The notes under the pieces are model-generated. The model saw nothing but the letters and a program-made list of their open reading frames with translations. It was not told the DNA's origin and searched no databases. DNA of 63,917 bases, counting the filler. It is 5 parts of 5 records of this genome, joined end to end, with 100 filler letters (N's around TTAATTAATTAA, not from the genome) between each part and the next. Parts side by side here need not be neighbours in the genome. Positions count along the whole stretch, not along the records: positions 33,649 to 50,207 come from SRR20825019_122; 4 more parts are not named here. One strand, given 5' to 3'. A program made the translations under genes and the position numbers. Below are positions 21,460-58,689 of the stretch, piece by piece. The first letter of the stretch is position 1; each line of letters starts with the position of its first letter.

Positions 21460-21540
21460 TTCCTTGCTCCTGTGTTTGATTTATCCCCCGCATGTTCCGC
21501 TTCCCGGATGTCAGTGATGTGATGCTTTTGTTGCCGAAAT

Positions 21541-21568
21541 AAGAAACGCCCGCTCGGAGGCGGGCGTT
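21541..21568 (-). terminator. Intrinsic terminator after the ExeM-type nuclease gene
   Basis: AACGCCCGC/GCGGGCGTT stem followed by a T-tract on the minus strand. Confidence 0.75.
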
Positions 21569-21586
21569 AACGGGTACAGCTCGTTG

Positions 21587-23578: not shown

Positions 23579-23767
23579 GGTTCTTTCCCTGATTGGTCAT
23601 TGAAGTTGTCGGGGGCGATCGGCGCCGCCTGTTCCAGTCTGGGAAAGGACTGTGACGAGGGGATTTTGGTTTTATGAATCAGTCATTAATGATATCGATA
23701 TCCATTTGCATTTGAGGCACAATTATCCGCTTTCGAAAAGGCTTCTACGCATCATCAAGGAACATAT

Positions 23768-24964: not shown

Positions 24965-27213
24965 GCCCACCAGGCTGGCAGCAGGTTGCGGATCTGCGGT
25001 TGCAGGAAGCGGTCATCGATCAGCCAGATCACGCCGGTGTCCTCCGGCGTTCGGATAACCCGGCCGGCGGCCTGGGCGACTTTCTGCAGGCCGGGAATCA
25101 GGTAGGTATAGGCGTGGCCGGCACCGAAGCGTTGCTCGAGCCGCTGGCGCAGAATTTCATGCCAATTGTCGAAGGGCGGCAGGCCGAGCGTTGCCACGAA
25201 AGCGCCGATGAGGCGGTCGCCGGGCAGGTCGATGCCTTCACTGAACACACCTCCGAGTACGGCCAGGGCGACGCCGGTATTGTTCTCATGGAAGGCCTTG
25301 AGGAACGCCGTGCGCTCATCGGTGGACATGCCGGGGCGCTGGGCTCGAAGCGGCAGGTCGGGCGCCTGTTGCAGAAGAGTCTCTTGTACCCGGTTGAGAT
25401 AGGAAAAGCTGCTGAAAAACGCCAGGTAGTTGCCGGGCCGCTGCTGGTATTGCCGGTGGATCAGTTCCGCGATGGGCGTCAGCGAACGTTCCCGGTCCGG
25501 CCGCCGGGTGCTGATGTCCGGGGTGAAATTCACCTCAAGCTGGTCGCAGGTAAAGGGGCCTGGCAGGGAGCGGAAGCAGGTGTCCTCCGGCATGCCCAGC
25601 AGGTCCCGGTAATAGACACCAGGCGACAGGGTCGCGGAAAACATCAGCGTACTGTCGGCGGCTTCGAAGCGCGGGGCCAGGAAGTCCGCCGGGATCAGGT
25701 TCTGGATGGTGAGTCTGGCCTTTCCTTTCGCCGGCCTGATCAGCTCGCACAGGGAATGATCGCCAAACACCTCCGCCAGCTTGGTAAAGGCCAGGCTTTC
25801 GAACATCAGTTCCTGCAGGATAAGGTCCGGCGGATGGTCCGCCAGGTAGTCGGTAATGGCGGAGACCAGTCGATTCAGAGCGCCGGTCAGTGAACCTGGA
25901 AGATTGTCCAGTATCACCGGCTCACGGCTGATGTCGGGGCAATGGTCGCGGATCACCGATTGCCACGCCCGGGACACGCCATCGAGTTTTGATTTCAAAG
26001 CCTTGGGCGACTGTTTCCGAACCCGCAGCAGATGTGCCTGGCTCAGCTCCACGGAGTACATGCCGCGGGCGCGGTCCACCAGGTTGTGAGCCTCGTCGAC
26101 CAGCAGGCTGGCTTTCCAGTCGTTCTGCCGAACCAGGGCATGGAGCAGGGCGGACTGGTCGAACATCCGGTTTACATCGGCCACCACCACATCGCACCAG
26201 CGGGCCATTTCCTGCGCCAGAAAATAGGGGCAGATACCGTGCTGGCGGGCAATGTCCGCCAGTACCACCTGGGTCAGGGCGCCGCTGTGATTGGCGGCGT
26301 CCTTACGGGCCGCCGGCAACCGGTCGAAGAAGCCCTTCGCCAGCGGGCAGGCGTCCCCATGGCACGCCTTGTCCGGGTGCTCGCAGGCATGATCCTTGGC
26401 CACCAGTTCCAGGGTTCGCAGGGGCAACGGGCCGGGTTGCTTTTCCCGCAACAGGTGAACGGCATCGACGGCCAGTTGCCGGGCGGTATTGCGGCTGGTC
26501 AGGTAGAACAGGCGGTCCTGTCTGGCCGTGGGCATCGCCATCAGGGCCGGGAAAAGGGTGCCAAGCGTCTTGCCTAGGCCGGTGGGTGCTTCCAGCAACA
26601 ATGTCTGTTGACGGACGCTGTTCCTGTAGACGGTTTCCGCCAGGGCGCGCTGCTGAGGTCGGAAGTCCGGGAAGGGAAAGGCCAGGTTTTTTAGCGCCAG
26701 ATCCCTTTCATGCCGGTGATTGGCTTCCTGTTCAGCCCAATCGCTGTAGTGTTCACAGAGCTGTTCCAGCTCCTGCCACAGTTCCTCTGTGAGGGCGGTT
26801 TCGGTGATGGGGGTTTCCTTGTCCTTGCCGACATCGTAGTAGATCAGGGCGAGATCGATCTGGCTCAACTTTTCCTGTCGGCACAGTAGTGCTCCATAGG
26901 CCCGCAATTGTGCACGGTGTAGATTGCGCTGGGCTTCCCGTACCCGGGACAGGTCACCGCGGTGGGTCTTGATTTCCTCCAGGCGGCCGGCGATCGGGTC
27001 ATAACCGTCGGCCCGCCCGCTGACCATCAGTTTGCCGCATTGGCCGGCCAGCGCCACTTCGCTTTGATACCTCGGCCCGCGACGGGCCTGCACCGCACCG
27101 TGGCCGGCAATGCCTTCTTCCGACGTGGGCGCCGGGGTGTAGCGCAGGTCCAGATCGCCCTTGCGGGCGGCGAATTCACACAGCGTTCGTACCGCGACGT
27201 TGAGGTCGGTCAT
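24961..27213 (-). CDS. XPD/DinG/Rad3-like FeS helicase with an N-terminal PD-(D/E)xK nuclease-like domain
   Basis: GRADG...EEIKT; Walker A APTGLGKT; four Cys (CEHPDKAC...CP...CPY); DEAHNL; SATL; EGIDLPG; QAAGRVIR. Confidence 0.9.
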   Translation of the reverse strand: MTDLNVAVRTLCEFAARKGDLDLRYTPAPTSEEGIAGHGAVQARRGPRYQSEVALAGQCGKLMVSGRADGYDPIAGRLEEIKTHRGDLSRVREAQRNLHRAQLRAYGALLCRQEKLSQIDLALIYYDVGKDKETPITETALTEELWQELEQLCEHYSDWAEQEANHRHERDLALKNLAFPFPDFRPQQRALAETVYRNSVRQQTLLLEAPTGLGKTLGTLFPALMAMPTARQDRLFYLTSRNTARQLAVDAVHLLREKQPGPLPLRTLELVAKDHACEHPDKACHGDACPLAKGFFDRLPAARKDAANHSGALTQVVLADIARQHGICPYFLAQEMARWCDVVVADVNRMFDQSALLHALVRQNDWKASLLVDEAHNLVDRARGMYSVELSQAHLLRVRKQSPKALKSKLDGVSRAWQSVIRDHCPDISREPVILDNLPGSLTGALNRLVSAITDYLADHPPDLILQELMFESLAFTKLAEVFGDHSLCELIRPAKGKARLTIQNLIPADFLAPRFEAADSTLMFSATLSPGVYYRDLLGMPEDTCFRSLPGPFTCDQLEVNFTPDISTRRPDRERSLTPIAELIHRQYQQRPGNYLAFFSSFSYLNRVQETLLQQAPDLPLRAQRPGMSTDERTAFLKAFHENNTGVALAVLGGVFSEGIDLPGDRLIGAFVATLGLPPFDNWHEILRQRLEQRFGAGHAYTYLIPGLQKVAQAAGRVIRTPEDTGVIWLIDDRFLQPQIRNLLPAWWA

Positions 27214-28910
27214 CGGTCGGTCCAGCGCACATAGCAGACGGAGACGGGAATGCCGTGGTCAACGCAGAACTCAAGCCATCGGGTCTGATGATCCTGCAGG
27301 CGGTCGCCAGGGCCTTTGACCTCGATCATTTCATAGCGCCGGTTTGGGTCGTTGTGGTCGGGCCGAAAGCGGATCAGGTCAGGAAAGCCGCTGCGGTGTT
27401 CGCGCAGGTTGCCCAGCAGGCGCCGGAACATCCGCTCCAGGTGTTGGGCCGGGATGCACGTCAGCGCCATTTCAAGCAATTCCTCCGAGAGTATTGGCCA
27501 GATCACAAACGGCGACGCGATGCCCTGTTTTTCCTGCCAGGTATCGCGGATTCGGGTTTTGTAATTGTCAGAGGCCAGCGTGCCGAGGCAGTCGTCAAAC
27601 AGTGCCTGACGACGTTCTACAAAATCCTCCCGGTACAGGTCCACCGGCCCGGTGTGAAAGGGATGGAAGAATGCGCCGGGCAATGGTTCGAACAGGGCGG
27701 GCCAGCAGAGCAGGCCAAACAGGCCATTGATGAGGGTGTTTTCCACATAGGCAACGGGGGTGTCGGGTTCGCTCAGGTGTTGCATGGCCGCCCACTCCAC
27801 CGAGTGGCCGTCCGGATTGTCCAGTTCCAGGGTGAACGCTGTCAGTTGCGGGCGTTCGCTTTGCTGGGGTAGCGCTTCTCCCAGTTTCTTCGCCAACCGC
27901 GCCAGGATGCGTTCGAGTCCGCGTTCCTCGGCGCCAAACCTGGGTTCGTCGGTGGCGGCCTGGGCAATCTTCCAGGCCTCGTGGTGTTGCTTCAGCCGTT
28001 CCAGAAGGCGCAGCTGGCGTAGCCGTGATTCGCGGTGTCCACTGAGGCGATGGGCCTTCAACGCCAGCTCTGTGTTACCGCCGCGCTCCGCCAGCTTGCC
28101 CAGTTCGAACAGCAAGCGGCCGCGCCGGCTTTCCAGCCAGGCATTCTCATTGGCCGTGGGGATGTCCTGCCATACGGTTTCTGGCGCCTCGCCCTGATCC
28201 AGGCGTTCACGGCAGTGATGCATCACCAGGTAGCGATCCACGTCGTCACGTTCGTCGAAAGCCCGGGACTCGGCAGAAAGCGGTACCTGTTCATACTGCT
28301 GGTGGCCCAGCTCCACCAGTACGAAATCGGACCAGCTCTGGCGCAGGTTGCCGAAAAACATCAGCCGCAGTCGGTCGAACAGGGCCATGTGGTTCAGGCG
28401 GATTACCTGTGTGGAGACGTCTGGTAGCCAGAGGTCCACAGGAGCGATGTCGGGATGCAGTGGAATCAGGGTGTCTTTCAGAAGACCCTTGGCGGCCGTC
28501 GCTGGCAGGCCGGCCGCGGAGATCTGGTTAGCGAGGGCAGTGCGAAGCTCGCCCAGCGTGAACAGGCGAAACAGCTCGGCAAGGGGAACGCTCGGATTGT
28601 CTTCAATCCAGCCCTTGGTGGCGAGCGCGCTCACGGCGTCATTCACCGGTACACCGATCTCCGGGTAGTTGAACTTCTCCACCCGGAACAGGTCGCCGGT
28701 GCGCATGACCATACGAGCCAGTAGTGCCCTTGCCGGCTGATCCAGGCTCAGCAGGCCATCTACCTTTCCGATTTCATCGGCGGTCAGCAGATCGCTGTGA
28801 AAACGCCGGACCCAGCGCACCACTGTCTCGAAGTTCTCGAGATAGTACAGCGGATTGTCCAGGTCCGCGGTGCCGGGAATGTGAGTCTGCTGGTCTGATG
28901 CGAGGGGCAT
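27210..28910 (-). CDS. VRR-NUC domain nuclease, bacterial FAN1-like
   Basis: YYLENF N-terminus, VENTLINGLFGL and GFPDL...EVKGPGDRLQDHQ. ATGA overlap with the helicase. Confidence 0.92.
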   Translation of the reverse strand: MPLASDQQTHIPGTADLDNPLYYLENFETVVRWVRRFHSDLLTADEIGKVDGLLSLDQPARALLARMVMRTGDLFRVEKFNYPEIGVPVNDAVSALATKGWIEDNPSVPLAELFRLFTLGELRTALANQISAAGLPATAAKGLLKDTLIPLHPDIAPVDLWLPDVSTQVIRLNHMALFDRLRLMFFGNLRQSWSDFVLVELGHQQYEQVPLSAESRAFDERDDVDRYLVMHHCRERLDQGEAPETVWQDIPTANENAWLESRRGRLLFELGKLAERGGNTELALKAHRLSGHRESRLRQLRLLERLKQHHEAWKIAQAATDEPRFGAEERGLERILARLAKKLGEALPQQSERPQLTAFTLELDNPDGHSVEWAAMQHLSEPDTPVAYVENTLINGLFGLLCWPALFEPLPGAFFHPFHTGPVDLYREDFVERRQALFDDCLGTLASDNYKTRIRDTWQEKQGIASPFVIWPILSEELLEMALTCIPAQHLERMFRRLLGNLREHRSGFPDLIRFRPDHNDPNRRYEMIEVKGPGDRLQDHQTRWLEFCVDHGIPVSVCYVRWTDR

Positions 28911-28919
28911 GGCTGGGCG

Positions 28920-33548: not shown

Positions 33549-33648
33549 NNNNNNNNNNNNNNNNNNNNNNNNNNNNNNNNNNNNNNNNNNNNTTAATTAA
33601 TTAANNNNNNNNNNNNNNNNNNNNNNNNNNNNNNNNNNNNNNNNNNNN
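33549..33648. other. Artificial contig spacer
   Basis: N-run, TTAATTAATTAA, N-run. Confidence 0.99.
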
Positions 33649-34215
33649 GTCATCGTCGTCATCGTCGTCATCGTCGTCCTCCTCCTCACTATCCGAGGCC
33701 TGCGCAGGCTTCAGCCACTTCTTGTTTTCATCAGTGAATCCCTTCTTAGACTTCGGCGCGGGCTCCTCCGAGTCGTCTTCTTCGCTGTCAAAGAGTTCAG
33801 CCTTGTTCGCCTTTTTCTTTGGGGTGCGGCGGACTTCGACCTCATCATCAACCTGTTCATATTCGTCATCTTCCTCACTATCGCTTACTTCATCCTCATC
33901 CTCATCTTCATCCTCATCCTCGCCTTCGCTATCACTCATTTCCATACCCTCAAGGTCTCCTTCATCAAACTCATCCTCATTAAGATCTTCGAAATCGCTG
34001 TCGTCCTCATCGCCCAACAACTCCTCTTCCTCTGAGTCGCTGATCTCCTCAGGCGCAGGGCGTTTCTTACCTTTCTTTTGATCAGACCCTTTTGCCTTCC
34101 CAGCCAACTTTCCCTTAGCGGGTGCAGGCTTGGCTGGTGCAGATTTCTTCTTGACCGGGGCCGGGGCAGGGGCCTTCATGGCTCCCTTCTTTGCGGCAAC
34201 ACTCTTCTTTCCCAT
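33649..34215 (-). CDS. Eukaryotic nucleolar protein N-terminus, probably NOP2/NOL1 rRNA m5C methyltransferase; 3'-truncated
   Basis: K/A/P-rich start and long D/E tracts with SDSEE sites. The GFTDENKKWLKP motif is recalled from NOP2 N-termini. The catalytic domain is not in the window. Confidence 0.55.
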
Positions 34216-35103
34216 GGTACCAACACAACAAATGGTTCCGAGGGACTCCGCTATAGATATACCGGTCCGGGTTCGAAAGAGGGAACTTGACTGGTCTCGC
34301 CTTGTCTACGTTCACATTGAGCGGCCGGAGCCCCCCGATGGGCTGAGCTGGCCATGTCGGCGTCTGCCTGGAATGGCATGCATCAGGTCACGGTGGCCTA
34401 AGAAGTTAAGGCCATAGTGTTCCGTCGATTATTATCGGAGAGTGGCCTATGAGGAATGAAGACTTAACGGAACACCATACAGCGACACTTGTGACAGTTG
34501 AATTAAATGGACCAGGGTGGAACAAGTGCTGACCGATATTTATGGGACAGCCTGAAATGACATAGCCTCTCCTCGACTTACAATTGGCCACCCTCAAGTC
34601 ATTCAGCTAGCGGGCGTCACTTTCTGGTGTAACTGGCTCACGAAATCAAAGCAACAGGCCGCTGGGCGAGCCGCTTCTTCCCCACTCATCCGTATGCGGG
34701 GGCCGCTTCTTGCTGGGTGGCGGGACGTCAACCCGGGGACGGTCGTGCCGCCCCCAGGTGCGCGCCCACGTGCGGGCAGGAGGGGTCGTGGTGGGGGGCT
34801 GACCCACTGTGGTCGCGGCCCGACTGACTCACTGGCCGTGCTGTGAGTCCCGGCCCACCAAAGGCACTTTGGCACCGGCGGCAGCCACTCCGCCACACCA
34901 GCCCCGGGATGCTGGAATACGTGCCCGTGAGGCCTGGACGAGTACGAGACACCTCTAGGGTTACGGCCGGGCTTCCTTTCCGCTCCCTGCGATCGGTTTC
35001 GGTTGAACAGGACACGGAGCACCCAGGTCACGAAAGAAAAGGCGAAGGCGATGTTACATATACATCAGCGCCTACATGGCAAAGCACTCGTTGAGACTGA
35101 GGC

Positions 35104-38100
35104 ATGGAGACGAAGAAGGGAGTTTCATTCGACCCCGCCTTAGCTTTGACCTCGATTGGGGCAGGGGCGCCTAAGCCCACTCGTAAACTATCCCGGGCTG
35201 AAAGTGCCATTTCAGAGGATGACACCACCACGGTTAGTGGCGGCGAGTCCAGTAGAACAGCATCAACATCGCGACGTTTGGGAGAGGGTTTGCTTGCTCC
35301 AGCGGAGGAGTCAAAAATGCGGAGACTCCTAGCCAAGTCAGTGATCACCAAGGATTCCGCTATGGTGTTACGGTTGGTGAAAGATCGGTCAAAGCAAAAG
35401 AAGGTAAGGCCATAGTGGAGAAGTCTGTTGTGCCAAAAAAACTGAAAGCGACATAGGAATTCCTCTTCAAAGTAATCAAAAAGTTTAAGTTGTCAATCTC
35501 TGCCAATCAACTACAAAAGAGAAAGTATCTCGTAAACCCCAACATCGTATTTAGCGTTAAAGAGAAAGAAGCGGTGGGCGACAGGGAGAGGGTGACCATT
35601 TTTGGCGAAAAAGTTGACGCGGAGCCCGTGATTAACTTTGCGGTGCGCACGTCTAGTCCCGCGGTGATTCGGGCTCTCCTGGACCATGGCGCCAATCCGT
35701 CTGCGCCTTCTCAGAAACTGCATCGAACATCTTTGCATGATGCTTGCGAGTATGGTAACGACTACGCTGTCGATCACCTGATAGAAGCAGGTTGCACGTT
35801 GAGTGCACGCGATTGGAGAGGGCGGACGCCACTACATATTGTTGTTGGGGTTCCATCGCATACCAAAAAGAACATTTGCATACCTGTGCTGCGGGCACTA
35901 CTCCTGCATGCCACCAAGGAAGATCTTGAGACGCCAATATTTACAAAGAACACTCCAACTCCAAGTCGAATTCTTGAGTATCCATTAAGTAGTGATGAGG
36001 CGTGGTTTGATGACAAAATCAAGATAGCAGAGCTAGAACAGGAGGGGAATTTCGTGTTTGAAACATCGTTCGAATCGCAGCGGCCTCGGCCACTGCACTT
36101 GTGTGCATGGAATGGCCACATTCCTGGGTGTAAGTTGTTGTTGGAGGCTGGCGCCAATATGGAGGGTGTTGACCTGGAGGGAGATACCCCGCTCTTTGTT
36201 GCTCTGTCGCGGAATCACCAGAAGGTAGTGGAGTACCTGATACGAGAAGGAGCAAACCTATCTCACGTATGCCGGCGCCGCGAGCCCATGCTGAACTTGA
36301 TAGCTCGTTCCAGCAACACAAACGTCTTTCGAAAGTTCCACGAGTCCTTCGAAACTGTCGATACGAAAGATATTGACGGAAACACCCCACTGTTCTGGGC
36401 GGCGTACAATGCAAATCTCCGAATTGCATCGATCCTCGTGCAAGCCAAGAAGGCCGATGTGAGACTGAGCAATAAGAAGGGCCAGACAGCGCTGCACGCT
36501 GTGTCCATGGGGAGCGCGTTGCCGCTTGCCCGCGCAGGTATTGTGACATTGCTATTGGAGAATGGTGGTGACGGCGCGGCTCTGTATGCTGAGGACAAAG
36601 CTGGGCGGACACCTTTGTCCCAGGCAGCAATGAATGGATTTGTGAAGGTTGTCGAACTGCTTTTGTTCCAAATACCTGGTGGTTTGGTGTCTTACAATTC
36701 GAAAAACATTTCCCCGATGCACTTTGCCGCAGGGGAGGGCAAGTCAGCTGTGGTCAAGATGGCAATAGAGAAAGGGATTCCCCAGGGGTGGAACCCACTA
36801 GATAACGACTTGATGACCCCGCTTCTGTGGGCAGCCAGAGGGTGGCATGTTTCCACATGCCTGCTCTTGCTCCAATTCTATCCGCAGTGGGCGTTTATCC
36901 CTGACCGGAAAGGCAATACTGTATTGCAGTATGCTGCCATGATGGGGAGTATGGAGCTGGCGCAGGAGGTTTACACAATAATTTCAGCCTACAAGTATCC
37001 GCCCCAAGGTAGTTACAGCTTCCAGAGGGATTATCAAGAGACCGTATATCAGGCAATCGCATACTGTAATACTGAGATTGCTTTGTTCATCATCGAAAAA
37101 GAGAGAGCATTCGCGGTTGAAGCAAGCGATGCTCTCCGTGTGGCCGTGGAGCATAGCCTGGTTGATGTGGTGAAGGCTCTGCTTACTAAGAGCAACCCAG
37201 ATGATCCCTTCTGCGTCGATACACCAGAATATGATGAATTTGGACGACCAACTACTGCATTGCACTCCGGCATTCGCCTTGGACGTTCTATTGTGCTGAA
37301 CTTGTCTGTCTCGAAGAATCATCGGATGGACCATGTGTTTGCAACAATACAAAGCAGCATTGGGATGAGCCTCGACAGGATTAGGATTAGCGTTGGTGGG
37401 ACCCCTTTGAAGCGCTTTAAGGAGGCATCCATCCCTGGCTATAGCCATATTGGAGAATTTATCAAATCTCTTTCCTACACAGACGGCTCGCCGCAGAAGA
37501 TGAATTTTGTTCTTCGCTCTCGAGGCACCGACGTCCTCCCGCGACCTTCTCCTATTACCGACTACGACAAAGGCCTTACGCTACTGACGGGCCAATATTG
37601 TGATATGGTTGACAAAGGGTTTTTGAATCGGACCGACGTGAACGGGGACACGCCGCTTCATTTTGCGGCAAGGAGAGGGTTACCACGCCTACTCGAGAAG
37701 ATTTTGCGAAAGAAGGTGGAGGACAGGTTCGACAAGAAGTATGTGCATATTGAAAATTCATTCAAGGAAACCGCACTGCTGGCAGTGGGCCAGAATTACT
37801 GCGATTGTATGTGCCAGAATTGCAACGGTTTTCGTGTGGATGCAGTGGGTCAGGCCGCGGATGAACTAGAGGGATGCTGCCGGTGTGACTGCTGCAATTT
37901 TTGTCACAGAGAAGGCGCCGTTCATGGAGAGGGCGTAGATGGAGTATTCAATAAGTTCTTAACATTTGACGGAAACCATGCGTATAGCGAAGGCCACCGC
38001 CGCTGCATTGAACTCCTCGTAATCTATGGATCCAACATCAACGTCACGAACCAATGGGGTTCGTCCCCTCTGTTATATGCGATCCGGGCCGGATGTTCTC

Positions 38101-41100
38101 AGTCCACTAAGCTATTCATTGAGAAAGGAGCAGTTGCGTTCCAGGTCGACAAGAACGGCAGATCAGCTTTCCATGAGGCAGCAAGGATGGGCAATGCCCA
38201 AGTTCTGAAGGTTCTGATCCAGCACCTAGACATTGTTCTGAAAAGTGGAGACGAAGAAAATAGGCAACACGTGATTGACGTATTCACGGGGGTAGACAAG
38301 CTGGGAATGACTCCCCTCATGATTGCCGTCTTGGCGAAGCGACATGAGTGCACGCATCTATTTTTGTCTCATCCGTTGTGCAATCTTGCTATTGACAGTG
38401 AACGAGGATCCCTTCTGCACCTTCTCATCGAGATGTGCGCCGAACATGGGGAAGATGAAGGATATTTATATGTCTTATCCGTGCTGTCTGCTCATGCACG
38501 AGGGCGGTCAATGCGAAATGGTCAGGGCCAAAGCCCGTATGAAATGGCACTTCAACACGGCCTTCATAAATGCCAATCCGTGCTTCTGGAGTCGCAGACA
38601 GGGGATAGGGAAGTATGGATCACTGGCCTCTCCGGGCCAGGTCTTCATGAGGCTGACAAGATCCGCGTGGAGGAAATACTTGAGGAGAGAGTGCGTGTCA
38701 AACAAGAAGAAATCGAGATGAATGATGCCGAACAGGAAAAACTCCAGATGGACAACGTCATGTTCAGCGTTGAAGAAGCGGGGCCTATCACAGGACGTAG
38801 TACACGATCTGATAGAACCTCGGAGTTTGGTACTGAAGAAGATGACGAGAATTGGATGTTCACATTGGATGATGATTTTGGTTTCTCAAAAGACGATATT
38901 TCGGCGATTGTCTCGAAGTCTCGTAAGAAGAAAGCAAAGGTTGCCAAGAAAACCGAAGGAGCGACGCTGGAGGAAGTCGAAAAGGAGGAAGACCACCGAG
39001 AGATAACAGAGGACCCAGAGTTGGTGGCAATAGAAGAAGCTCGGGACCCCGTTAACTTGGCTTTTATGCTCATCGACGAGGAACTTCAGGACCATGTTGC
39101 TTTGGGGATGATGATAGAGCACAACCCGCATCTAGACATCAAGAATAGCTCTGGTGATACCATCTTCCACCTTGCTGTTAAATATGACGCCATCGACTTC
39201 CTGTGCGTCTTGGTAGGAGCAATCAATGACTTCAAGGTTCCCCTCGATCTTGTCGACGAACCCGATGCCGATGGAAACACGCCCTTTTTTATTGCTGTCA
39301 AAAATAACAGGCATGAAGCGGTTGTTGCTCTGCTCGACTGCCCGGGTGTAGACATGAACAAGTATTTTGACCACGGCCGGACTGCTCTTCATTATGCGCT
39401 AGCTGAGGGCTACGTTGATCTTGCTTCGAATATCATGGACTACATCCATCGGGAAAAGTTGAGATTTGACCCATGTATCAAAGACCAGTCGGGCGATACC
39501 GCTCTACTTGCGGCAATTCGCGCGGGCGAGAGCGCTATCGTGGCGAAAATGCTCTCAGTTCGTATCCCCCACCCCCCTGATCTTACACATTGCGGACCGG
39601 ACCAATTTAGTGTTCTCCACACCGCGCTAAAATGCTCGCCAGAATTAGTGGAGCTCATTCTTTCCATGACGTTAAAGTGGAAATTGGAAATAGATGTGAA
39701 CTCTAGAAACCCGGAGTCATACACACCCCTGGCCATGCTTGTTGACAAGAATCTATCGCAGTGCATCAAGTACATATGCCGCTTTGAGGGAATCAAGGTC
39801 AATGTGCAGAACGGCCCCATGATGCCAGGGAATGCACTGCAGTACGCTTTAAAAACGTGGGACGACGACAGTCGATGTGCATGCGCTCTTCTCGATGCGT
39901 GCCTCGCGAATTCACTTTTCATAGATGTCCGCATGCTCGACCCAGATGGTGTTGTTCCGATCGTACGTGCGATAATGAACAATCAGCCTGAAGTCCTTTT
40001 GAAGATTCTGAAGTTCAACGTAAACCTTGATGAGGCCCTGGATGAAGCCTCCATCCTTGAAGTAGCAATCAAGACAAATGAAGATCCTTATTGCGCGGTA
40101 CATCTTCTTGAGGAGGCTGCCAAGAATCGCCTCTCCATTGACGTGGAACTAAGGAATGCGGATGGGGTGACCCCTCTGGGGTTGTGTGTTGAACTAAATC
40201 AACCCAAGATTGCAGCGGCATTGATGATCCACAACCCGGATGCGGAGGCCTCTGTCAACCTGGAGACCTCCTTGTGCCCTGCACAGGCAGCCATGCTGGA
40301 GAGAAAACCTGAAGTTGCTGCTGCTATCTTCCGCGAGGCAGCAAAGAAGAGGATTGCTGTGCTGGACCCGAATCGGTACGATGAGGAGGGGTACACATAT
40401 CTTCACCGCGCGGTTGAATGGGACCATGTGGTGGTTATAGATGCCCTTGCTGGTTTTGGTCCTAGGTTGAACATCAATGCCCCTCTTCAAGACAGTGCGA
40501 AAAGTCTCACGACACCGTTACAGATGGCTATTATGGCTTGTGATCCCCAGAAGCCGCGAGAGGAATGGAGGGAGGCGGCAGCTGTGGCTATAATGAACGC
40601 GTCTTTAAGGAATCGCATCCCATTGAATCTCGGCATCAAGAATAGATCCGGGCTGAAGCTAATCCATATGGCGGCCGCTAACAATCTTGACAAGCTAATG
40701 GAAAAATTATTAGACTTTAACGAAATCGATGTTAATGCGTACACCAGTGATGTTCGCTCGGCTCTTCAAATTGCTGTGTGCGCGCACGAAAATCCAGTTT
40801 GTGCTCTTGCCATGCTGCAGCGCTGCCTTGAGCGGAAGCATGCCCTCCATGTCAACCAAGTCTGCATTGCTCCTGGGTTCGAAAAACAGTCGTTGATACA
40901 CTATGCTGTAGCCAAGAATTATGTGGAGATGGTGTCGTTGATGTTGTGTTTCAAGATCCGGATTGACGGTGACACTGACGATGCGTCGCCGATACATGTT
41001 GCACTGCGATGCCATCCCAAGGACGATCGTTGTGCGAAAACGATCTTGCGTAGAGCACTAAGTTTGAAGCTTGCTGTCAGCAGCAATCTGTGCGACCGAG

Positions 41101-44100
41101 ACGGATATACCCCTCTTCACCTTGCCATCAAGAATAATCAAGTCTCTGTGGTAGAGCTTTTACTGAAATTGCCTAACATTGAGGTCAACAAACAGGACGA
41201 GGCAATTACCAAGAATACCCCGTTTTTGCAGGCCTTGCTTCGGGCGTCTTCGGACCAGGACTGCGCCATCAAGATGATAGAGGCCGAACGGCTAGAGAAT
41301 TCCCGTGTTCACATTGGCTATAACATTGAGAATGCCCAGAAAGTTAGACCAATTCACGCTATCATTGAAAATGAAAGAGCCGATGTTCTCGCCTCTATTC
41401 TCGAGACGCGCAAGGTGGAGGTGAATTGCCCGCACCCGGTTTCGGGCAAGCCGCCTCTATTCATGGCTCTGACTGAATGCAACAAGCCTTTCTGTGCTGC
41501 GACTCTGCTCAATCGAGCTATCAACAAAGGGATCGACATAGATGTGTCGACATTTTTCGACGGAATGGCACCCCTTCATCTTGCAATGAAACGCAAATGG
41601 AAGGACGTTGTGACTTTGTTGCTACGCTTCAGAGACACAGACCCAGACGCGTACAGTGATGAGAAGGGGTACAGTGCGATGCACTTTGCCGTGTTCTCGG
41701 ACTTCCCCGACGGAATATCTGCAATGTATAAGCGGGACCGAGGTGTAACTCGGGGGAGATTTCCTTGGCATGACCCACCGACACCCTACCAAAGTTCTTT
41801 TGGGTTTCGCCTACCTAAGAAATCAACGTTAGAAAAGGTGTTCTTTGACAAAAAGTGCGTCGACTTGAATCAATACGACTTCTTTGGGCAGTCGCCGCTG
41901 TATTATTCCATCGTTCAAGGGAAATTTGATTGCATGGGGAGGCTGCTTGACTTCACGCGCACCATTGATATCGAATGTGTTGATGAGGAAGGCAAGAGTG
42001 GATTGCAGGTCGCATGCAGTGATGTCAAAGGAGATAACTCCGTGCATATACGTGAATTCATCGAGAAAGCATCCCGCCGCGGTCTCATAGTCAATGTCAA
42101 CAAGAAGACTCACACTGGAGAACCTCCTTTGAACAGAGCTGTGCGATTGGAGCAGATATCTGTTATCAACGTTCTCCTCAACTTCCAAGGAATTGACATT
42201 TCTGCCTACGACGCCCTTGGCCGCACCGCGCTGGAGGTTGCTCTCAGAATCCGAGAGTACCGAACGGTTAGCATAGACCGCAATCGGGAAAAGGCCGAGC
42301 AGCACATTAAGCAACTTGCTAATGTTGAGGAATTTTCACATTGGTTTGCAGATGCTATTTTGGAAGAATCTTTGGATATTGTGAATCAAGAAGAAGTCCA
42401 TGAAAGCACCTTTGCAAACCTTATTCTTACTGCAGTTGGCAAGGGGAAGTTGTCACTTGATGTCAATGCACGTGACAGTGAGGGCCTGTTCCCACTCACA
42501 CGCGCCATCAGAAACGGGTGGACGGAGACTGTGAAAATTCTCCTCGAGAACAGAACAATCATTATACAACAACCTGATCGTTTCCGCATGACTCCACTGG
42601 AGACGGCTATGCACGATGAGCATGGAGATGAAAGTTGTGCCATTGCCATTATCAAACTCTCAATTGCAAGTCCCTACTTGAAAATCGACATCAACCAACT
42701 AGACGAGAAAGGAATCCCGCCAATTCTCAATGCTGTCTATTGCCGCAAACCCAACACTCTCAGGGAGCTCCTCCTCTATCCCAACATTGATGTAAACGTC
42801 AAGAGCAATGGCGGAAAGACCCCTATTTTCGAAGCTGTTAAGATGGATGGGAATGAGTTGGATGATGAATGTGCACGGACTATTCTCGAAGAGGGCCGAG
42901 CAAATGTGAAGCTTGGCCTTGACGTCAATACCCGTGACCGCCACGATAATACTTTGCTGCACCACGTTATTCTCTGTAACAAGATGGCTCTCCTTCATCC
43001 TCTCCTGGAGTTTCCGGAGCTGGATGTAAACGCGCGAAACGGGGAAGGGCTTCCACCCTTAGAGATAATGCTCTTGAAGCCATCATCCTCTGTTGATGTC
43101 ACGAAAGGCAATGCAAACTTCGCGCTTGCCATTGATTTCTTGAAACTTGCAAATCAGAAGAAGCACAACCTGGATCCGAATATCACCCTGTCAAACGGAT
43201 CCACAACCCTGATACACTCCATACACTGCCGTCAGCTTGAGGTCTTCAAGCTCTTGATGAATGTGAGGGGGATCGACATCAATAAGCAAAATTCTTCTGG
43301 TGAGACTGCTTTACATGTTGCGATCTGTATTCCAGACCCTGCAGAAGCTGTGGCGTTTGCTTGCGCGGCACTTGAAAAAGGCTATGCTGATTCCCACATC
43401 AACCTGGACTACAATATGCGAATGCCATCCGGCGATGCTCCTATTCACATGGCGACACGCTTGAGGTACTATTCTGTGATTACCTGCCTCCTACGATTCG
43501 GCGGCATTGAGGTGAACACAAGGGACCAGGATGGCTACCCCCTCTTGTTCCTGCCGGTGTTCAATTCGGATCAAAAAGCACTTGAAATGATCATGGCCAA
43601 TGACCTACTCGACCTCAACTTGGTCGACGGTAGCGGTTATAGCGTCCTACACAGGTGTGTTTTGCACAAGGATGGAGTGCAATACGAAATGATTGAGGAG
43701 ATCCTCCGGCGCGGTGACCACGAAGATGCTTACCTCCGCTTCAACGTGAATCACCCCGACCCAGACGGTCACCCATGTTTGTATTATGCCATCATGAACA
43801 ACGACTTCAGGCTGGTACAAACTCTTTTAGCGTATAGATCCATTGATTTGCAACGACAGGACGTCAATGACCAAACTGCTTTGTCTCTAGCAGTACAGGC
43901 TCAGAATGTAGGCGATGTTCGAATTGTAGAGGCTGTACTGGACAAAGCAATAGAAGGGCTCCCTTGCAACCCCAACCGTGCCAATTATGATGGATGGACG
44001 CCACTACAAAAGTATATGGCAAACAAAGAAAACGAAGAGGAGGAGACTATACTTCGACTCTGTGACAAACTCTTGAATCTGAAGGTGGATCTGTCTGTGC

Positions 44101-46781
44101 CAGATCCTGATGGACGGTCGGCGTTGACTATAGCAATACTGTGGTACCCAGATAAGAGTCTCGCTGAAAGGATTGTACGTCTAATGCATGAAGCAAAGCA
44201 AATTCCTCTCAGCATCAACTCAATGTTCCATCATGCTATTAAGGGAAATCATTTAGAGCTTGCACAGGCTCTCTTTGATGTGGGCCGCCTCGACAAAGGG
44301 ACGACTGAACAGTGGAGGCAGCTGGTGTGGATGTCGTGCGAGTTTTCGGACGATCCTCGTATGTTCTGCCTGGTTATGAAGAAACTATATAGTGACTATG
44401 GCACACATCTCAACATGGACTTCCCCGCTTGCAAGGGAGCGCACATATCGCTTGGTCGGATGGCGGCGATGTATGCCGTCTTGTTGAACCTGCCGGAGAC
44501 TTTGAGCATTTGTCTGAAATCATTTGGCGCCAACAAGCGAAACAACAGAGTGAAAGATTATTCTACTGGTTTGTCTGTCGATGATGCCAATAATGGCTTC
44601 ATCTTTCTTCCTCCAGGACAAGAACCTGCTGAACTCCCTGTGAGAACTGATGTGGGTTTGCTTCAAATGGCAGTAGACACGGAATTCGAGGAATGCGCCA
44701 AAATTCTTATTATTGATGGACGCGAACTGCTCAAATCAGATTCGACCGGTGACACGGCGCTCCATGTTAGTGCAACAAGGAAGCGCCTTTTCTCCCTTAC
44801 AGTAATGGAACATGCCTTAAAGCAAGGCGAGGATGTCCTGGATTCACAGTTAAAGAAATGGAACGCAAAGGGATATGCTGCTATCCATTTAGCAGCTAAG
44901 GACGCCAACACAATAACTGTCATAGATATGATCGAGGCTGGAGCCGAAGTAGACATGTTGGATCGCCGAGGGGATACTCCACTAATTCATGCAAGCAAAA
45001 GGGGAAGCTACGGAACAGTGAAGGCTCTTCTCGAACGAGGTGCCGCAGTCAACCATCAAAACCATCTCGAAAGGACCGCTCTGCATGTGGGAGTGCTCAA
45101 CGAGAATCAGCGCATTGTAGACCTTCTCATTGACTACGGCGCCGATCCATTTATTTACGACTACAAACTAGAGCCCCCCGTCTTCTATGCTACGAAAGAG
45201 ATCAAAGAATACCTCCGATTCAAGATGTTTGAGGATCGCCTTCCTATGTGTGTGACCATCGTCTATTGTAGCGAGTGCGAGAAGCACCATGATTGGCACA
45301 CACGCCATACGAGCAAGGAGTATCTCGACCGTGCCAAGCTAACAGAGGAGCGAATCCGCGAGGAGTTTCCTTATATCGATGTAATCCTACAACCTCTTAT
45401 TGAGGCTGATCTATTGCGCCTTCCTCCCGACACCCGATTCGGGGCCTTTGAGTTGTACTGGGATGACAATCAAGGCGGCCACCGCTGCTTGTTCAAGGCC
45501 TCGGCCAAAACGAGCAAGTTTGTGAGCCTGAAGAACCTCCCAGATATTCTGGTGAGGGCGCTGGTGGCGATTCACCACGGGGGGGAGCTTGTAAGTAAGG
45601 CTGCGGAAGACATGCTGAGTGACGAAGAAAGGGAGGAGCAGGAAAGGAAGCTCAAGAAAGATTTCTTCAATCCGAATAAGAAGGCCGTTGAGCCGCCTCC
45701 TACCGGAAAGCGATCGTGCAAGTGCGCGGAGCTTGGCTGCAAGAAACCAACAGTCGCTGATATTTTGGGAAAGAACAAGGAGAAGAATATCGATTACTCT
45801 TACAACTATGGTGTGGAGGACTCAACGCTTTCAGGAGAGTATCTACCCGACAACTTGGTCAATCCCAGCCATGCTGATGCCGATGATCTGCCGCCTGTGG
45901 TGGGTCCGGGTGGCCGCCCTGTATCTGTTCAAGGTTCTAAGGAGAGTGTAGGACACCTTGAAGATATGTCGCTGAGTACCATAGGGGCCGAACCTCCCGA
46001 CTTGCGTCCCAGCAGCCGCCAGGGGTCGCCCCAGGGGCGTGTTAGGGCGCATAATGCCAGAATTTTCGATCCGACTGTCCTTTCGAAGGAGTTTTCCGTG
46101 CAGGAGCCTAAACGCGTACTGTCACCGCCGCAGCGGTTGCCGGCGTTCCACAAGAAAACCGACATTTTGGATGGGATCAGAGACAGTGGCAGCATGCTGG
46201 CACTCCTGGAGACCATAATGTCCAAGGGAACTGAGAAGGCATTCAAGCAGGCAGACAAGATGCGGAAAAAGAACGCAGAGAGACAGAGCAGCATGGATGC
46301 GACTCAGGAGGTTGAGCGCCCATCTGAATTGGAGGGAGGTGTTCGGGAGTCTCGCAAAAGTGGGAATGAGATGATTGTTCAGCCGCCACGAAGTGTGAGA
46401 AAAGAGATGAAGGGTATCTACCAATTATCAGCCAAGTCAGCAACATACCAGGCAGTTCCTTCGGCAATGCGTAACCTCGTTACAGAACGCGGTGGTCTGA
46501 CATGGATCAACAAGAAGATAACGGACAAGGGCGCACTAGGCGTGATCCCAATGGAAAGCGATAGGCGTGAAAGACTGAAGAGTGCATCATCGTCCCGGTC
46601 TGGGGCGCGGAGCGCAAAATCCACGCGAAGCTCCCGTTCCAGTAGGTCAGGTATAGGAAGAGAGACGTCAACTGCATGGGGAGAGAACTCCCAACCTAAT
46701 GTGAAACAGGCAGCCTCTGCATTCCCATACAATGTTCCGAATGCAAAGTCCGCAATGAGGCAACACAACACTGTCGAATAA
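35104..46781 (+). CDS. Giant ankyrin-repeat protein, predicted join(35104..35403,35520..46781), ~3853 aa
   Basis: 11.3-kb stop-free frame with dozens of GxTPLH/TALH...DVN repeats. The upstream 100-codon ORF ends at AAG|GTAAGG and splices in frame. Confidence 0.88.
35404..35519 (+). other. Predicted phase-0 GT-AG intron (116 nt)
   Basis: Donor GTAAGG; AT-rich with in-frame stops; acceptor AAG at 35517-35519 restores the frame. An alternative in-frame AG lies at 35525. Confidence 0.65.
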
Positions 46782-46796
46782 ACCTCCTTTAAGCGT

Positions 46797-49700
46797 TTAC
46801 TGCTGTGGCTGCATGAATTGGTCTTCCTCGACGAATGCCTGAGCAATCCGAAATTCGGCTGGTGTTAAGAGGGCATACATCCTATTCGGGACCAAGTTGG
46901 ACCCGGCAAGTGAAGCAGGTGCCAGCGATCTGAAGAGATACTCACGGGCATCCGGAGATGGGAAGACTCTCCCCTCCTTACCCTGACTAGAGGATTTCCC
47001 CATACAGAAAATCTCGCGGAGACATCGCCTTTCCTCCTCCGTCTTAACAGCAGCTTCTGTCGAATCCATCAGGTCGTTTACAATGCGGAACTCTCCTCGT
47101 AGCTGCAGTCACAAGTCAAATCTCAGTCAAACCGCATACACACCATCGTACCTTCTCCAGTAGCGACATGGCTCTCATGCTCATGCACTCAGTTTCGGCC
47201 AAGGCGTCGGTGAATTCCTCTGCAACAGCTGCGGCCGGCACTTCCTCGTCCAGTGCCCTCATGACATCTGCGAGGCCGCTCGTGTGCCTGGCCACAACGG
47301 GAAGCTTGTTAGATGGCAGATTCGTCAAGAAATTGACGGTGGACCGCAGAACAATATCCAGCAGCTGATCCAATAATTCCTCGGGAAAAATATTCTCGAG
47401 GAAGTGGAACACGACTTCCGCTTCTTTCTCGTGATCAAATAGCGGCCTTTGAAGAACCGCCATAAGCGGAACAGCAGACTCCCAACATTGCTTCCATATG
47501 TTATTGTCTCCGCGCATCCTGTTGCTTACATAGCCTAAGCCGGGAATATCAAGCTCATCATCCGGGACATCGGGCCACGGAGAAGCACTCCAGTCGCGAG
47601 GAGAGTGCCACCGGATGAAGTCGTGGATGCAACAATCAGGATTAGCTCCCTTGAATGCCTGCATATCAGAAACCAACTGCGCGCTTTGCAACCTGGCACG
47701 AATTTGAGCAGCTTCTGCAGATTCCCCCAGCTGAGTGAAGGCGTCTTGCTGTTGCCGTATGGTGTCCATAGTCATCGGCACGTCTCCCTGAGTCCTGGGC
47801 TCCCATAAAAGGTAGTTGGTATTTACGCTGAACAGCCCTGGCAATGGTTTCATGTGACCTTTTCTCCTATTGAAATACTCATCAGGTTCCGCCACCTTCT
47901 TCTCAAGGGGAAGCTCATAGATGTGTTGGTGTGCTCGTGGAGTATCGGCGGAGGGAGTTGCAAAGTCGGCTGGGTTGCATTGCGGTGATTGCTCTGGTGT
48001 TGCAATCACCGGGGTTGCGTCACGATCCTCCAATTTTCTTGCGGGGGTGGCTTGAACAGATTCGGTCTCGCTGGCAGTGCCGGCATCATCTTCGCAATCA
48101 AAAAAGTCGTCTTCTTCACTGTCCCCGCCGGATTTACCTCCAGCACGAGGAGATGCTTCATCTCCAAATATATCGTCATCTCCAACATCCCACCCTTCCC
48201 CGGCCTCTCCGTCCATTCCCAGGTCAGCCGCCGCATCCGCAATTGACGTTGCTTTTGCTTCCTCAGCGCCGATATTTTCCCCAAATCGAACTACCCTCCC
48301 TGGTGGCGATGTCGACGCTTCCCCTTGATCCTCGTCTTCGCTAGCTTTTTTCTCCTCGGAGGCTTCGTCGGACTCCTTGGGAACGTTCTGTTTGTAAAGC
48401 AACATACGCGAAATGCAAATATTTAGCATAGTCACTTTTTGAAATAGAAGGTTTGTGCTAAGGTCCAACTTCAAGGCGCAACGGCGTAGCGGAACCCCAT
48501 TCTCCCAATGCCACCTCAATTCTTTCACAAACTCCCTCCACAACACAGCCATAGGCCGGATATTACCAAGAGATCCCATTTTCATTGCAAATACAGCTAG
48601 TAAAGAATTGTCATACATTCTCCATCTTGGCCTGGATTCTGAATCATCCTCTGTAGATTCATCGTGTTCGTCCATTCCAAAGTTCGAATCAAATATTTCC
48701 CCCATTGTTTCATCAATTCTTGCGGCGGTGGTCCGTCGTTTCAGAAGTTGGCTTTGCATCGTCCTTCCAATAGACCCTAGTGCGTGAAGAAACTGGGACT
48801 GAGGATCCTCACCTGCCCCCAGAAAATCGTTCATAGACGCAGCACCCTTAGAACTCGAAATTGCACCTCGTAGAGCATCTATGCAGCCGGCATATGCGCA
48901 AGAGATTTCTTTGTAATATTTGCAGCGCAAGGCCCAAAATGGGGCCGTCCCACTCTCTAGTTGTGTATACACAGAATTCTCGACAAGCGATGGCGAGGGG
49001 AAGTGCAACCACGACGTAGCAAGGTTAATGGTCTCGACCGGATCATCGTCCGGTTCCCATAAACACCCGCCAACTGTTGGCACCCAGTTAATTCGATGCT
49101 GGCGCTTCCGTAGCAGTGTACCAAGGTCTTCTTCTTCTTCATACATCTCTCCGTCATACTCGTCAGCTTCGGGCAAGGAATACTCGCTCTTATATGTGAA
49201 TCTCACGGACACACTTACTTTCTCTTGGAGAGCATTCGATAGGCCTAGTTTGGAGGAGAACAAGTCGAGCAGGCCAGATAAGTGCTGGTATGAAGGAGAC
49301 GCGGTGTCTAGACTGTCAGAACGGTATCGGATGCCCACTGATGGCGCGTCAAAGAACCCTAATATTGTGCCATCCTGCTCCTCAAAAACGTGCACAAAGC
49401 ACGGAAGGGGGAGGTGGCAGTTCTGGCAAGCCACGTTGAGAGCCCCGAGGAGCATGGAGGCCTCGCCACGTTCCACAGCTGCGGATCCCAGCGGCTTCAA
49501 CATGACATAGCTTGTTACACCAAACCACCTCTGCAGGCGCCCCAGCTGGGCACTGAAGTCTGTGAGTTGCCCATATGTTTCTAGTCGACCGTTAAGTCCT
49601 TTCTCATCAATGAGAAGGGTGGTATCATCCACGTGTCCAATCAGCTCGTATGACTGTCCTCCGTGAGAGACTACCTCCTTTAGAGAGTTTGCGAGCTTTC

Positions 49701-49902
49701 CGTCCATATTTCCGTCCTCATCTTCAACACTTCTCCCCGCTTCTCCAAGCTCAGCCCAGCTATCGCTCCACTGTCTAATTGACTCCTCGAGCTTTGCACA
49801 AAATCTTTCCCAGGGCGTTGCAGTGGTGAAGTCGTTGATCTCGAAAACCTCGTCGTCGTCGCCCTCTTGGGGAAAGTTATCGAGGGCTGCACCTCCTGAC
49901 AT
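46797..49902 (-). CDS. RAB3GAP1: Rab3 GTPase-activating protein catalytic subunit, complement(join(46797..47102,47152..49902)), ~1018 aa
   Basis: VFEINDFTTATPWERF, LWREFVKELRWHWE, SDMQAFKGANPDCCIHDFIRWHSPRDW and C-terminal REYLFR...NRMYALL...FRIA. Two ORFs are joined by one intron. Confidence 0.93.
47103..47151 (-). other. Predicted phase-0 GT-AG intron (49 nt)
   Basis: AAG|GTACGA...TGCAG|CTA joins SLLEK to LRGEFRIVNDLM in frame. Confidence 0.88.
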
Positions 49903-50207
49903 GCTTTCACAGGTATAACTGCAAAGGATATGGGGACCCTAGAAATATTTAGGATACGCAAGCCAGTTGTTGGCTTCAGGCAGGTAGTCTACCGCAGTTC
50001 AACTACTGCTGTCTGGCATATGCCTAAACCTGCCTTGCTCCAAATGTCGGTTTGGTATGGTTGCACCTGACGAAATTCGTCGAAGCGGTTACGTGACTGC
50101 GTGGACCTGTTCAGTTGCCATGTGCACATGCCACCAGTGGGCCCATAGCTGATAAGCAAGGCTACCTGTGGCAAGTGCCCGGCGGGTTGGGAGGGGGGGG
50201 GGGGGGG

Positions 50208-50307
50208 NNNNNNNNNNNNNNNNNNNNNNNNNNNNNNNNNNNNNNNNNNNNTTAATTAATTAANNNNNNNNNNNNNNNNNNNNNNNNNNNNNNNNNNNNN
50301 NNNNNNN
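50208..50307. other. Artificial contig spacer
   Basis: N-run, TTAATTAATTAA, N-run. Confidence 0.99.
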
Positions 50308-58589: not shown

Positions 58590-58689
58590 NNNNNNNNNNN
58601 NNNNNNNNNNNNNNNNNNNNNNNNNNNNNNNNNTTAATTAATTAANNNNNNNNNNNNNNNNNNNNNNNNNNNNNNNNNNNNNNNNNNNN
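58590..58689. other. Artificial contig spacer
   Basis: N-run, TTAATTAATTAA, N-run. Confidence 0.99.

What the first reader, a model, noticed from the sequence alone, without database searches (positions are those of the whole stretch)
35104..46781. ~3850-aa ankyrin scaffold with ubiquitin-like, Cys-rich and Rdx-type modules
Seen: one 11.3-kb exon encoding dozens of ankyrin repeats, interrupted by a ubiquitin-like segment, a Cys cluster and an acidic coiled linker, and ending in a CxxC domain and a disordered S/R-rich tail. It lacks the ZU5/death domains of ankyrins, the TM region of TRPA/TRPN channels, and any kinase or NACHT motif. Inference: an architecture I do not recognise, plausibly a redox- or ubiquitin-linked giant scaffold. 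This is the best candidate for an undescribed system in the window.
Basis: partly seen in the sequence, partly recalled or inferred. Interest (0 to 1): 0.7.

Follow-up and report, generated by a model that had tools for sequence, protein, structure and literature searches.

The report
Giant ankyrin rod with zinc-type Rdx
An unidentified single-celled eukaryote has a very long gene for a rod of more than 60 ankyrin repeats that ends in a selenoprotein-W-like domain whose redox site has gained two conserved histidines and so likely binds zinc, while the proposed ubiquitin-like part stays unproven.

Summary
The gene is real. A stop-free 3,774-codon frame (35457-46781), probably preceded by a 100-codon exon, gives about 3,874 aa. 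It lies on a 16.6-kb eukaryotic contig concatenated between bacterial contigs. It holds 37-63 detectable ankyrin repeats, depending on model and threshold. The centre is 20 diverged copies of a ~77-aa two-ankyrin unit; no DNA repeat suggests misassembly. The C-terminal CxxC domain is Rdx-like (SelW/T/H) but belongs to a eukaryotic subgroup with CxxCxxH-x5-H: 140 of 140 examined relatives that have the domain carry it, 0 of 23 bacterial Rdx do. I read this as a likely zinc site, not a plain redox site (untested). The 10-Cys cluster is real and sits inside one ankyrin repeat. The ubiquitin-like call was not confirmed: only the predicted strand/helix order fits. No orthologue was found, and no RNA run was listed. 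The scan noted a similar ankyrin+Rdx giant (with SAM and dead caspase) on other DNA of this assembly (e1-7189075, unchecked). Verdict: an unusual, lineage-specific, probably non-enzymatic scaffold, a new variant of a known kind, not a new system. The His-extended Rdx subgroup is the most testable novelty.

The parts
35104..35403 (+). Predicted exon 1 (100 codons; low-complexity Ser/Thr-rich start, then a helical-looking stretch)
   Evidence: ATG at 35104 and GT donor at 35404 in phase 0; no Pfam family; inferred, no RNA
35404..35456 (+). Predicted 53-nt GT-AG intron
   Evidence: Sequence; contains in-frame stops; a ~49-nt GT-AG candidate interrupts the neighbouring Rab3GAP gene
35457..46781 (+). 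Exon 2: 3,774 codons plus stop (residue numbers below count from its first codon; add 100 for the spliced protein)
   Evidence: codon usage of three parts correlates 0.89-0.91
35607..37256 (+). N-terminal ankyrin block (aa 51-600, at least 12 repeats), with a ~75-aa insert at aa 128-204
37263..37592 (+).
   Evidence: Single-sequence model strand-strand-helix-strand-strand-helix-strand, pLDDT 60; no ubiquitin-type row in fold searches; weak ubiquitin similarity only
37626..38591 (+). Second ankyrin block (aa 724-1045), carrying the Cys insert
37800..37907 (+). Cys cluster (aa 782-817; 10 Cys and 1 His; CxCxCxxC then CCxCxCCxxCH), between the two helices of one ankyrin repeat; predicted metal-thiolate knob
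   Evidence: no family match
38592..39041 (+). Acidic linker (aa 1046-1195)
   Evidence: 42 D/E, 21 K/R in 150 aa
39252..44222 (+). Central array (aa 1266-2922): 20 copies of a ~77-aa two-ankyrin unit (short A ~35 aa, long B ~45 aa) plus single repeats
   Evidence: Autocorrelation peaks at 74-78 aa; 20 units, mean identity 21%, max 32%; leave-one-out 34 of 40 halves prefer their own class
44637..45191 (+). C-terminal ankyrin block (aa 3061-3245, 4-5 repeats)
45240..45572 (+). Rdx (SelW/SelT/SelH-like) domain with His-bearing insert; predicted zinc ligands Cys at 45267 and 45276, His at 45285 (or 45288) and 45306
   Evidence: Pfam Rdx 18.9 bits, E 0.0017, cut-off 22.6; 6 of 6 nearest relatives pass the cut-off
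45609..46778 (+). 390-aa tail rich in disorder-promoting residues (67%), with a basic S/R patch at 46554-46676; no SAM, caspase or other family found
34700..34999 (.). GC-rich block (63-78% per 100 nt) between the two divergent gene starts; candidate promoter region
46797..49902 (-). Convergent neighbour: Rab3 GTPase-activating protein catalytic subunit, two exons; its stop lies 15 nt from the giant's stop
   Evidence: Pfam Rab3-GTPase_cat and Rab3-GAP_cat_C
33649..34215 (-). Divergent neighbour, cut by the contig end: Lys-rich then acidic N-terminus, NOP2-like (name recalled, from no call)
   Evidence: no Pfam family

Best explanation
This is a single eukaryotic gene for a ~3,870-residue ankyrin-repeat protein that likely works as a long, non-enzymatic cytosolic scaffold, ending in an Rdx-fold domain whose CxxC is predicted to bind zinc together with two histidines. 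Shown: the open frame, the repeats, the two-repeat super-unit, the Cys cluster, the Rdx kinship and the conserved C-C-H-H set. Inferred: (1) the repeats stack into a solenoid that binds partner proteins; at 24 repeats per ~150 A turn (PMC7314423) about 63 repeats would span roughly 40 nm if continuous; (2) the centre grew by old tandem duplication of a two-repeat unit; (3) the inserts (aa 128-204, 603-712, 776-850) bulge from the loop between the helices of single repeats and act as side knobs, the Cys cluster probably as a second metal-thiolate site; (4) the acidic linker is a hinge between two rods; (5) the Rdx domain has turned its thiol-exchange site into a structural zinc site and serves as a docking module, as it would in its ciliate relatives, where it heads large carboxypeptidase-regulatory-like and WD40 proteins; (6) the basic S/R patch is a phosphorylation-controlled contact. 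Partners and location are unknown.
For: Ankyrin content. No membrane, kinase, NTPase or other catalytic family. Super-unit. CxxCxxH-x5-H in 140 of 143 proteins; the 3 without it are fragments lacking the domain. C, C, H, H are 4 of 8 invariant columns in a 44-sequence alignment at 21-32% identity to the window domain. 0 of 23 bacterial Rdx have the histidines, which lie in an insert between CxxC and helix 1. The window domain scores 64.7 bits on a profile of the eukaryotic relatives and 5.2 on a bacterial one. Cys2His2 sets with such spacing are typical zinc ligands (established knowledge, from no call).
Against: Zinc binding was not tested, and no model of the Rdx domain was made. The relatives were found with a profile that already holds the four residues, so their conservation is partly selected; the set is redundant (13 clusters at 70% among the 126 that one pattern caught); P, G, E, I and L columns are as invariant as the histidines; 95 of 215 hits were not listed. 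The window's spacing is H-x6-H (or x3 then x5), one residue longer than in all relatives. The CxxC stands where the redox-active CxxC of MIEN1 does (PMC3527542). No orthologue exists to show that the inserts are under selection. Named relatives are only three Paramecium proteins, so no cellular role can be borrowed.
Confidence: 0.55

Rival explanations
1. The CxxC is a working thiol-disulfide site as in SelW or MIEN1, and the ankyrin rod brings substrates to it; the histidines tune or shield the site.
For: CxxC after strand 1 and a GxFE motif, the two marks of the Rdx family (PMC10650576; alignment); TIGR02174 hit by 7 of 7 aligned domains, at E up to 0.1; MIEN1 is the top, though insignificant, PDB row (E 1.4).
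Against: Two invariant histidines in an insert next to the cysteines, in 140 of 140 domains and 0 of 23 bacterial Rdx; both codons are Cys, no selenocysteine.
Confidence: 0.2
2. The aa 603-712 insert is a true ubiquitin-like fold, and the protein works like SHANK (ubiquitin-like SPN domain plus ankyrins) or a proteasome shuttle, binding a small GTPase or ubiquitin machinery.
For: Predicted strand/helix order fits a beta-grasp in two independent models; 4 of 5 PDB sequence hits at E up to 10 are polyubiquitins, aligned without long gaps over 43 aa. The SPN precedent is in PMC6090658.
Against: Each ubiquitin copy scores only 2.7-3.6 bits; the E of 0.07 comes from summing tandem copies. No Pfam or NCBIfam ubiquitin-type hit. 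A profile of four Pfam-ubiquitin domains gives no hit; global alignment z 1.4, reached by 49 of 500 shuffles; hhalign probability 0.1%. No terminal Gly-Gly; no E2, E3 or DUB domain.
Confidence: 0.12
3. The ankyrin array is the sensor of an innate-immune or cell-death-type signalling protein, one of a family of ankyrin+Rdx giants with exchangeable C-terminal modules.
For: Earlier unchecked notes on this assembly report an ankyrin+Rdx+SAM+dead-caspase giant (e1-7189075) and several NLR-like giants; these are leads only.
Against: No NACHT, TIR, death, SAM or caspase family here. The repeats are old and diverged (mean 21% identity, no DNA repeats), unlike recently shuffled sensor arrays.
Confidence: 0.1
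4. The frame is an assembly chimera or a non-expressed relic.
For: No orthologue; the sequence comes from a metagenome-type concatenation.
Against: 3,774 codons without a stop; no internal DNA match at E 1e-3, no tandem array, longest direct repeat 29 nt at 76%; even codon usage and GC3 along the gene, closer to Rab3GAP (0.72-0.80) than to two bacterial genes (0.60-0.70); intact eukaryotic neighbours on both sides.
Confidence: 0.03

Closest known systems
Rdx family: SelW, SelT, SelH, MIEN1/Rdx12 and bacterial SelW-like proteins (Pfam PF10262, TIGR02174; PDB 2LJK)
   Same: CxxC after the first strand, GxFE motif, same order of predicted elements in the alignment.
   Different: A 12-14-aa insert with two conserved His after the CxxC; no selenocysteine; the domain is fused to about 3,300 aa of ankyrin rod, whereas the known members are small proteins.
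Uncharacterised CxxCxxH-x5-H Rdx proteins of ciliates and unnamed eukaryotes (e.g. Paramecium tetraurelia A0CMB7 / GSPATT00008413001, P0076; P0001-P0143)
   Same: Nearest relatives of the C-terminal domain, 21-43% identity, all four predicted ligands kept.
   Different: Domain lies near the N-terminus, followed in some by carboxypeptidase-regulatory-like or WD40 regions; 0 of 143 have ankyrin repeats.
Long ankyrin arrays built from super-repeats (PMC7314423; PMC1553488)
   Same: Period-two duplication with conserved phase, long arrays in eukaryotes, and whole domains inserted into repeats are all reported.
   Different: Here the unit is ~77 aa with one lengthened repeat, very diverged (21%), and three large inserts occur in one protein; the paper finds long inserts mostly in arrays of 3-10 repeats.
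Canonical ankyrins (ANK1-3, unc-44) and TRPA1/TRPN channels
   Same: Long ankyrin solenoid; generic ankyrin similarity only (20-38% identity for most hits).
   Different: No ZU5, UPA or death domain, no channel domain; far more than 24-29 repeats.
SHANK1-3 (ubiquitin-like SPN domain plus ankyrin repeats)
   Same: Precedent for a ubiquitin-like fold next to ankyrins in a scaffold with a long disordered part (PMC6090658).
   Different: The ubiquitin-like fold is unproven here and would be internal; no SH3, PDZ or SAM. A likeness of design, not kinship.

Membership tests
Ankyrin-repeat proteins (Pfam Ank, Ank_2) | Tandem ~33-aa repeats above the curated cut-off | tested here: met
   Ank_2 596 bits against 27.3; Ank 352 against 21.1
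Canonical ankyrins (ANK1-3, unc-44) | ZU5-UPA and death domains after 24 repeats | tested here: not met
   No such Pfam family at E up to 0.1 or in tail pieces
TRPA/TRPN channels | Six-helix ion-channel domain after the ankyrins | tested here: not met
   No Ion_trans; TIGR00870 74 bits against 498.75, best stretch in ankyrins; highest 19-aa hydropathy 1.65
NLR/STAND or ankyrin kinases | P-loop NTPase or kinase domain | tested here: not met
   No family; no Walker A; a lone DFG in the acidic linker
Rdx (SelW/T/H) | CxxC/U after strand 1 | tested here: met
   Aligns with the CxxC of 11 bacterial Rdx; Cys codons
Rdx (SelW/T/H) | tGxFEI(V) motif (PMC10650576) | tested here: met
   G, F, E kept, last residue L
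Rdx (SelW/T/H) | Pfam PF10262 above the cut-off | tested here: inconclusive
   18.9 bits, E 0.0017, cut-off 22.6; 6 of 6 nearest relatives pass; Atlas top clusters at 0.87-0.88 carry Rdx in 21-30% of members
Rdx (SelW/T/H) | Thioredoxin-like fold | not tested
Rdx (SelW/T/H) | Thiol-disulfide oxidoreductase activity | not testable with these tools
   Needs an assay; the histidine pair argues for a metal site
His-extended Rdx subgroup (defined here) | CxxCxxH-x5-H in an insert before helix 1 | tested here: met
   All four residues align, with one extra residue; 64.7 bits against 5.2
Ubiquitin-like (beta-grasp) domains | Significant match to a ubiquitin-type profile | tested here: not met
Ubiquitin-like (beta-grasp) domains | Beta-grasp fold | tested here: inconclusive
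   Element order fits, but the model is low-confidence (pLDDT 60, pTM 0.51, no alignment); fold searches gave nothing clear
Conjugatable ubiquitin-like modifiers | C-terminal Gly-Gly | tested here: not met
   The only GG of the segment lies mid-domain

The most novel reading that the evidence does not exclude
Eukaryotes hold an undescribed branch of the selenoprotein-W/Rdx fold in which the redox CxxC has been rebuilt into a Cys2His2 zinc site. It is a mobile module on large scaffolds (ciliate WD40 and carboxypeptidase-regulatory-like proteins; a family of ankyrin giants in this protist) and acts as a zinc-release redox switch that controls what a ~40-nm ankyrin rod binds.
Probability: 0.25. 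Interest if true: 0.65.

Novelty: new variant of a known kind. Interest (0 to 1): 0.42.

Why it matters
Giant ankyrin proteins with shuffled extra domains are common, so the architecture alone is a curiosity. What is worth follow-up is the C-terminal domain: the Rdx family is treated as thiol oxidoreductases whose exact functions are unknown (PMC10650576), and here a eukaryotic branch keeps two extra histidines beside the CxxC. If it binds zinc, it would be a clean case of a redox site turned into a metal site or a zinc-release switch, testable on a 120-residue domain and, genetically, on the Paramecium relative. It would also correct the automatic 'selenoprotein domain' reading of these proteins.

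Tried and rejected
Own genome: none held; the nearest genome G001 has no match to the eukaryotic contig (0 of 1), so its kinship comes from the bacterial pieces. Sequencing runs: none was listed, no RNA holder listed; no reads were laid. Orthologues: none for the Rdx region among 237 candidates of 2,075-6,605 aa; only 6 hits, best E 3.8e-6, among 1.84 billion representatives; region 560-1060 gave generic ankyrins (120 of 225 listed), none matching an insert (best E 0.27) or the Rdx profile; no related loci in metagenome contigs for Rab3GAP or the insert region or in viral contigs; 0 of 10 exact look-ups found (starts were guessed). These searches can miss long, diverged relatives. Structure: the 440-aa single-sequence model was unusable (pLDDT 40). 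For the 101-aa insert, Foldseek gave no match at E 0.001 and VIA-align a best Z of 5.8 with no ubiquitin-type chain among 50 rows; with such a model this does not exclude the fold. The Atlas gave no lead for the insert region. PDB sequence searches with the Rdx relatives found no member in any solved structure; the RIIa-domain row (E 0.12) was dismissed as chance. A two-copy complex job on the Rdx domain with zinc gave no answer (score 0.00, alignment not used); it is no evidence either way. NCBIfam matches to Legionella Ank effectors are far below their cut-offs and reflect generic repeats; a bacterial origin was rejected on the intron, neighbours and codon usage. Palmitoylation of the Cys cluster was considered (recalled likeness to cysteine strings) and ranked below metal binding because the flanks are polar. 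The paper that defined the Rdx family (PubMed 17503775) is not held.


Full report
Setting. The window is a concatenation of contigs joined by N44-spacer-N44. The flanking pieces are bacterial (RecBCD, GGDEF, topoisomerase IV, TRAP transporter). The piece 33649-50207 is eukaryotic: it carries a two-exon Rab3GAP catalytic subunit and a NOP2-like start (name recalled). No genome is held for it, and the organism stays unidentified. The giant gene starts back-to-back with the NOP2-like gene across a GC-rich block and ends 15 nt from the Rab3GAP stop.

The frame. 35457-46781 is open for 3,774 codons. An ATG at 35104, a GT at 35404 and the AG just before 35457 give a 100-codon first exon in phase and 3,874 aa in all; a GT-AG candidate of about 49 nt lies in Rab3GAP. 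The splice is inferred. Misassembly is unlikely: no internal blastn match, no tandem array in the gene, no direct repeat longer than 29 nt, and even codon usage. Residue numbers below count from exon 2.

Ankyrins. Pfam scores 596 bits. A profile iterated on 120 outside ankyrin proteins finds 37, 43 and 55 repeats at 10, 5 and 2 bits (5 shuffles: 0, 0-1, 0-2; reversed: 0, 2, 3). With models of the protein's own repeats the count is 63 (circular for 40 of them). Period-two ankyrin arrays and domains inserted into repeats are known (PMC7314423, passages and section 10; PMC1553488, passages). The same paper gives 24 repeats per ~150 A turn and natural arrays up to about 100 or more repeats, so this array is long but no record.

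Inserts. The sequence shows the Cys cluster between the TALL helix and the second helix of one repeat, and the 603-712 segment right after a TALH motif. Ten Cys in 35 aa is far beyond chance (0 of 2,000 shuffles above 7); no family matches. A metal-thiolate cluster is my inference from the CxCxCxxC spacing. For the 'ubiquitin-like' segment, two single-sequence models give the strand/helix order of a beta-grasp, and polyubiquitins top a PDB sequence search, but only by summing copies of under 4 bits. Pfam, NCBIfam, a profile of four Pfam-ubiquitin domains, global alignment (49 of 500 shuffles as good) and hhalign all fail. Fold searches on the pLDDT-60 model were inconclusive. I put the chance of a true ubiquitin-like fold at about one in three; with no terminal Gly-Gly it is not a conjugated modifier.

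The C-terminal domain. Pfam Rdx hits below its cut-off. The six relatives found among 1.84 billion representatives all pass it. A profile search added 215 hits, 120 listed. Of the 143 proteins then in hand, 140 have the domain and all 140 carry CxxCxxH-x5-H; the other 3 are fragments. None of 23 bacterial Rdx proteins from 121 genomes has the histidines; they sit in a 12-14-aa insert between the CxxC and helix 1. In a 44-sequence alignment at 21-32% identity to the window domain, C, C, H and H are four of eight invariant columns. The window domain belongs here (64.7 against 5.2 bits), with one extra residue. Caveats: the profile selects for these residues, the set is redundant (13 clusters at 70% among 126), and some fold residues are equally fixed. 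The GxFE motif and CxxC match the family definition (PMC10650576, passages), and MIEN1's CxxC is redox-active (PMC3527542, passages), so the redox reading is not excluded. The relatives place the domain near the N-terminus, some ahead of carboxypeptidase-regulatory-like or WD40 regions (10 scanned); none of 143 has ankyrins; the only named ones are Paramecium proteins.

Tail. 390 aa, 67% disorder-promoting residues, with one 41-aa S/R patch; no SAM, caspase or other family.

Mechanism. Most likely (0.55) a cytosolic, non-catalytic solenoid scaffold with side knobs, an acidic hinge and a zinc-bound Rdx-fold docking domain. The scaffold part is well founded on composition; zinc binding is a prediction from conservation (about 0.7); partners and location are unknown. 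Rivals: redox enzyme on a scaffold (0.2), ubiquitin-like or GTPase-binding scaffold in the manner of SHANK (0.12; PMC6090658, passages), immune-type sensor (0.1), artefact (0.03).

Novelty. No full-length relative was found, but these searches can miss long diverged proteins. An earlier unchecked note reports an ankyrin+Rdx+SAM+dead-caspase giant on other DNA of the same assembly (e1-7189075); a sequence look-up did not link the two, and I could not test it. Paper searches (listings only) showed no description of an ankyrin+Rdx protein or a zinc-type Rdx; most subscription journals are not held, and proteomics supplements, where such proteins could be listed, were not searched. Verdict: real, unusual, a new variant of a known kind, not a new system; interest 0.42.

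Noticed in passing
window 8689-8788, 33549-33648, 50208-50307, 58590-58689: N44-12 nt-N44 spacers join unrelated contigs; the window mixes at least four bacterial pieces with one eukaryotic piece, so neighbours across spacers mean nothing.
   Followed up: yes
window 34700-34999 and about 50150-50207: GC-rich blocks lie upstream of gene starts; the three genes alternate in strand, and the two 3' ends meet only 15 nt apart (46782-46796), so their 3' UTRs would overlap.
   Followed up: partly
window 45711-45746 (aa 3419-3430): A small CxC-x4-C motif follows the Rdx domain; no family match.
   Followed up: partly
P0001-P0143: A sizeable uncharacterised eukaryotic family, named only in Paramecium, starts with the His-extended Rdx domain and continues with carboxypeptidase-regulatory-like and sometimes WD40 regions; no member in the PDB.
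   Followed up: partly
L024-L027 (genome G024): One unnamed bacterial genome holds four frames with Pfam ubiquitin domains above the cut-off (1 of 41 genomes).
   Followed up: no
window 19624-23596 (-): Bacterial pair of an exported ExeM/NucH-like nuclease (name recalled) and a 5'-nucleotidase; ordinary extracellular DNA use.
   Followed up: no
window 24961-28919 (-): Bacterial VRR-NUC/FAN1-like nuclease next to a DinG-type helicase, near recBCD.
   Followed up: no
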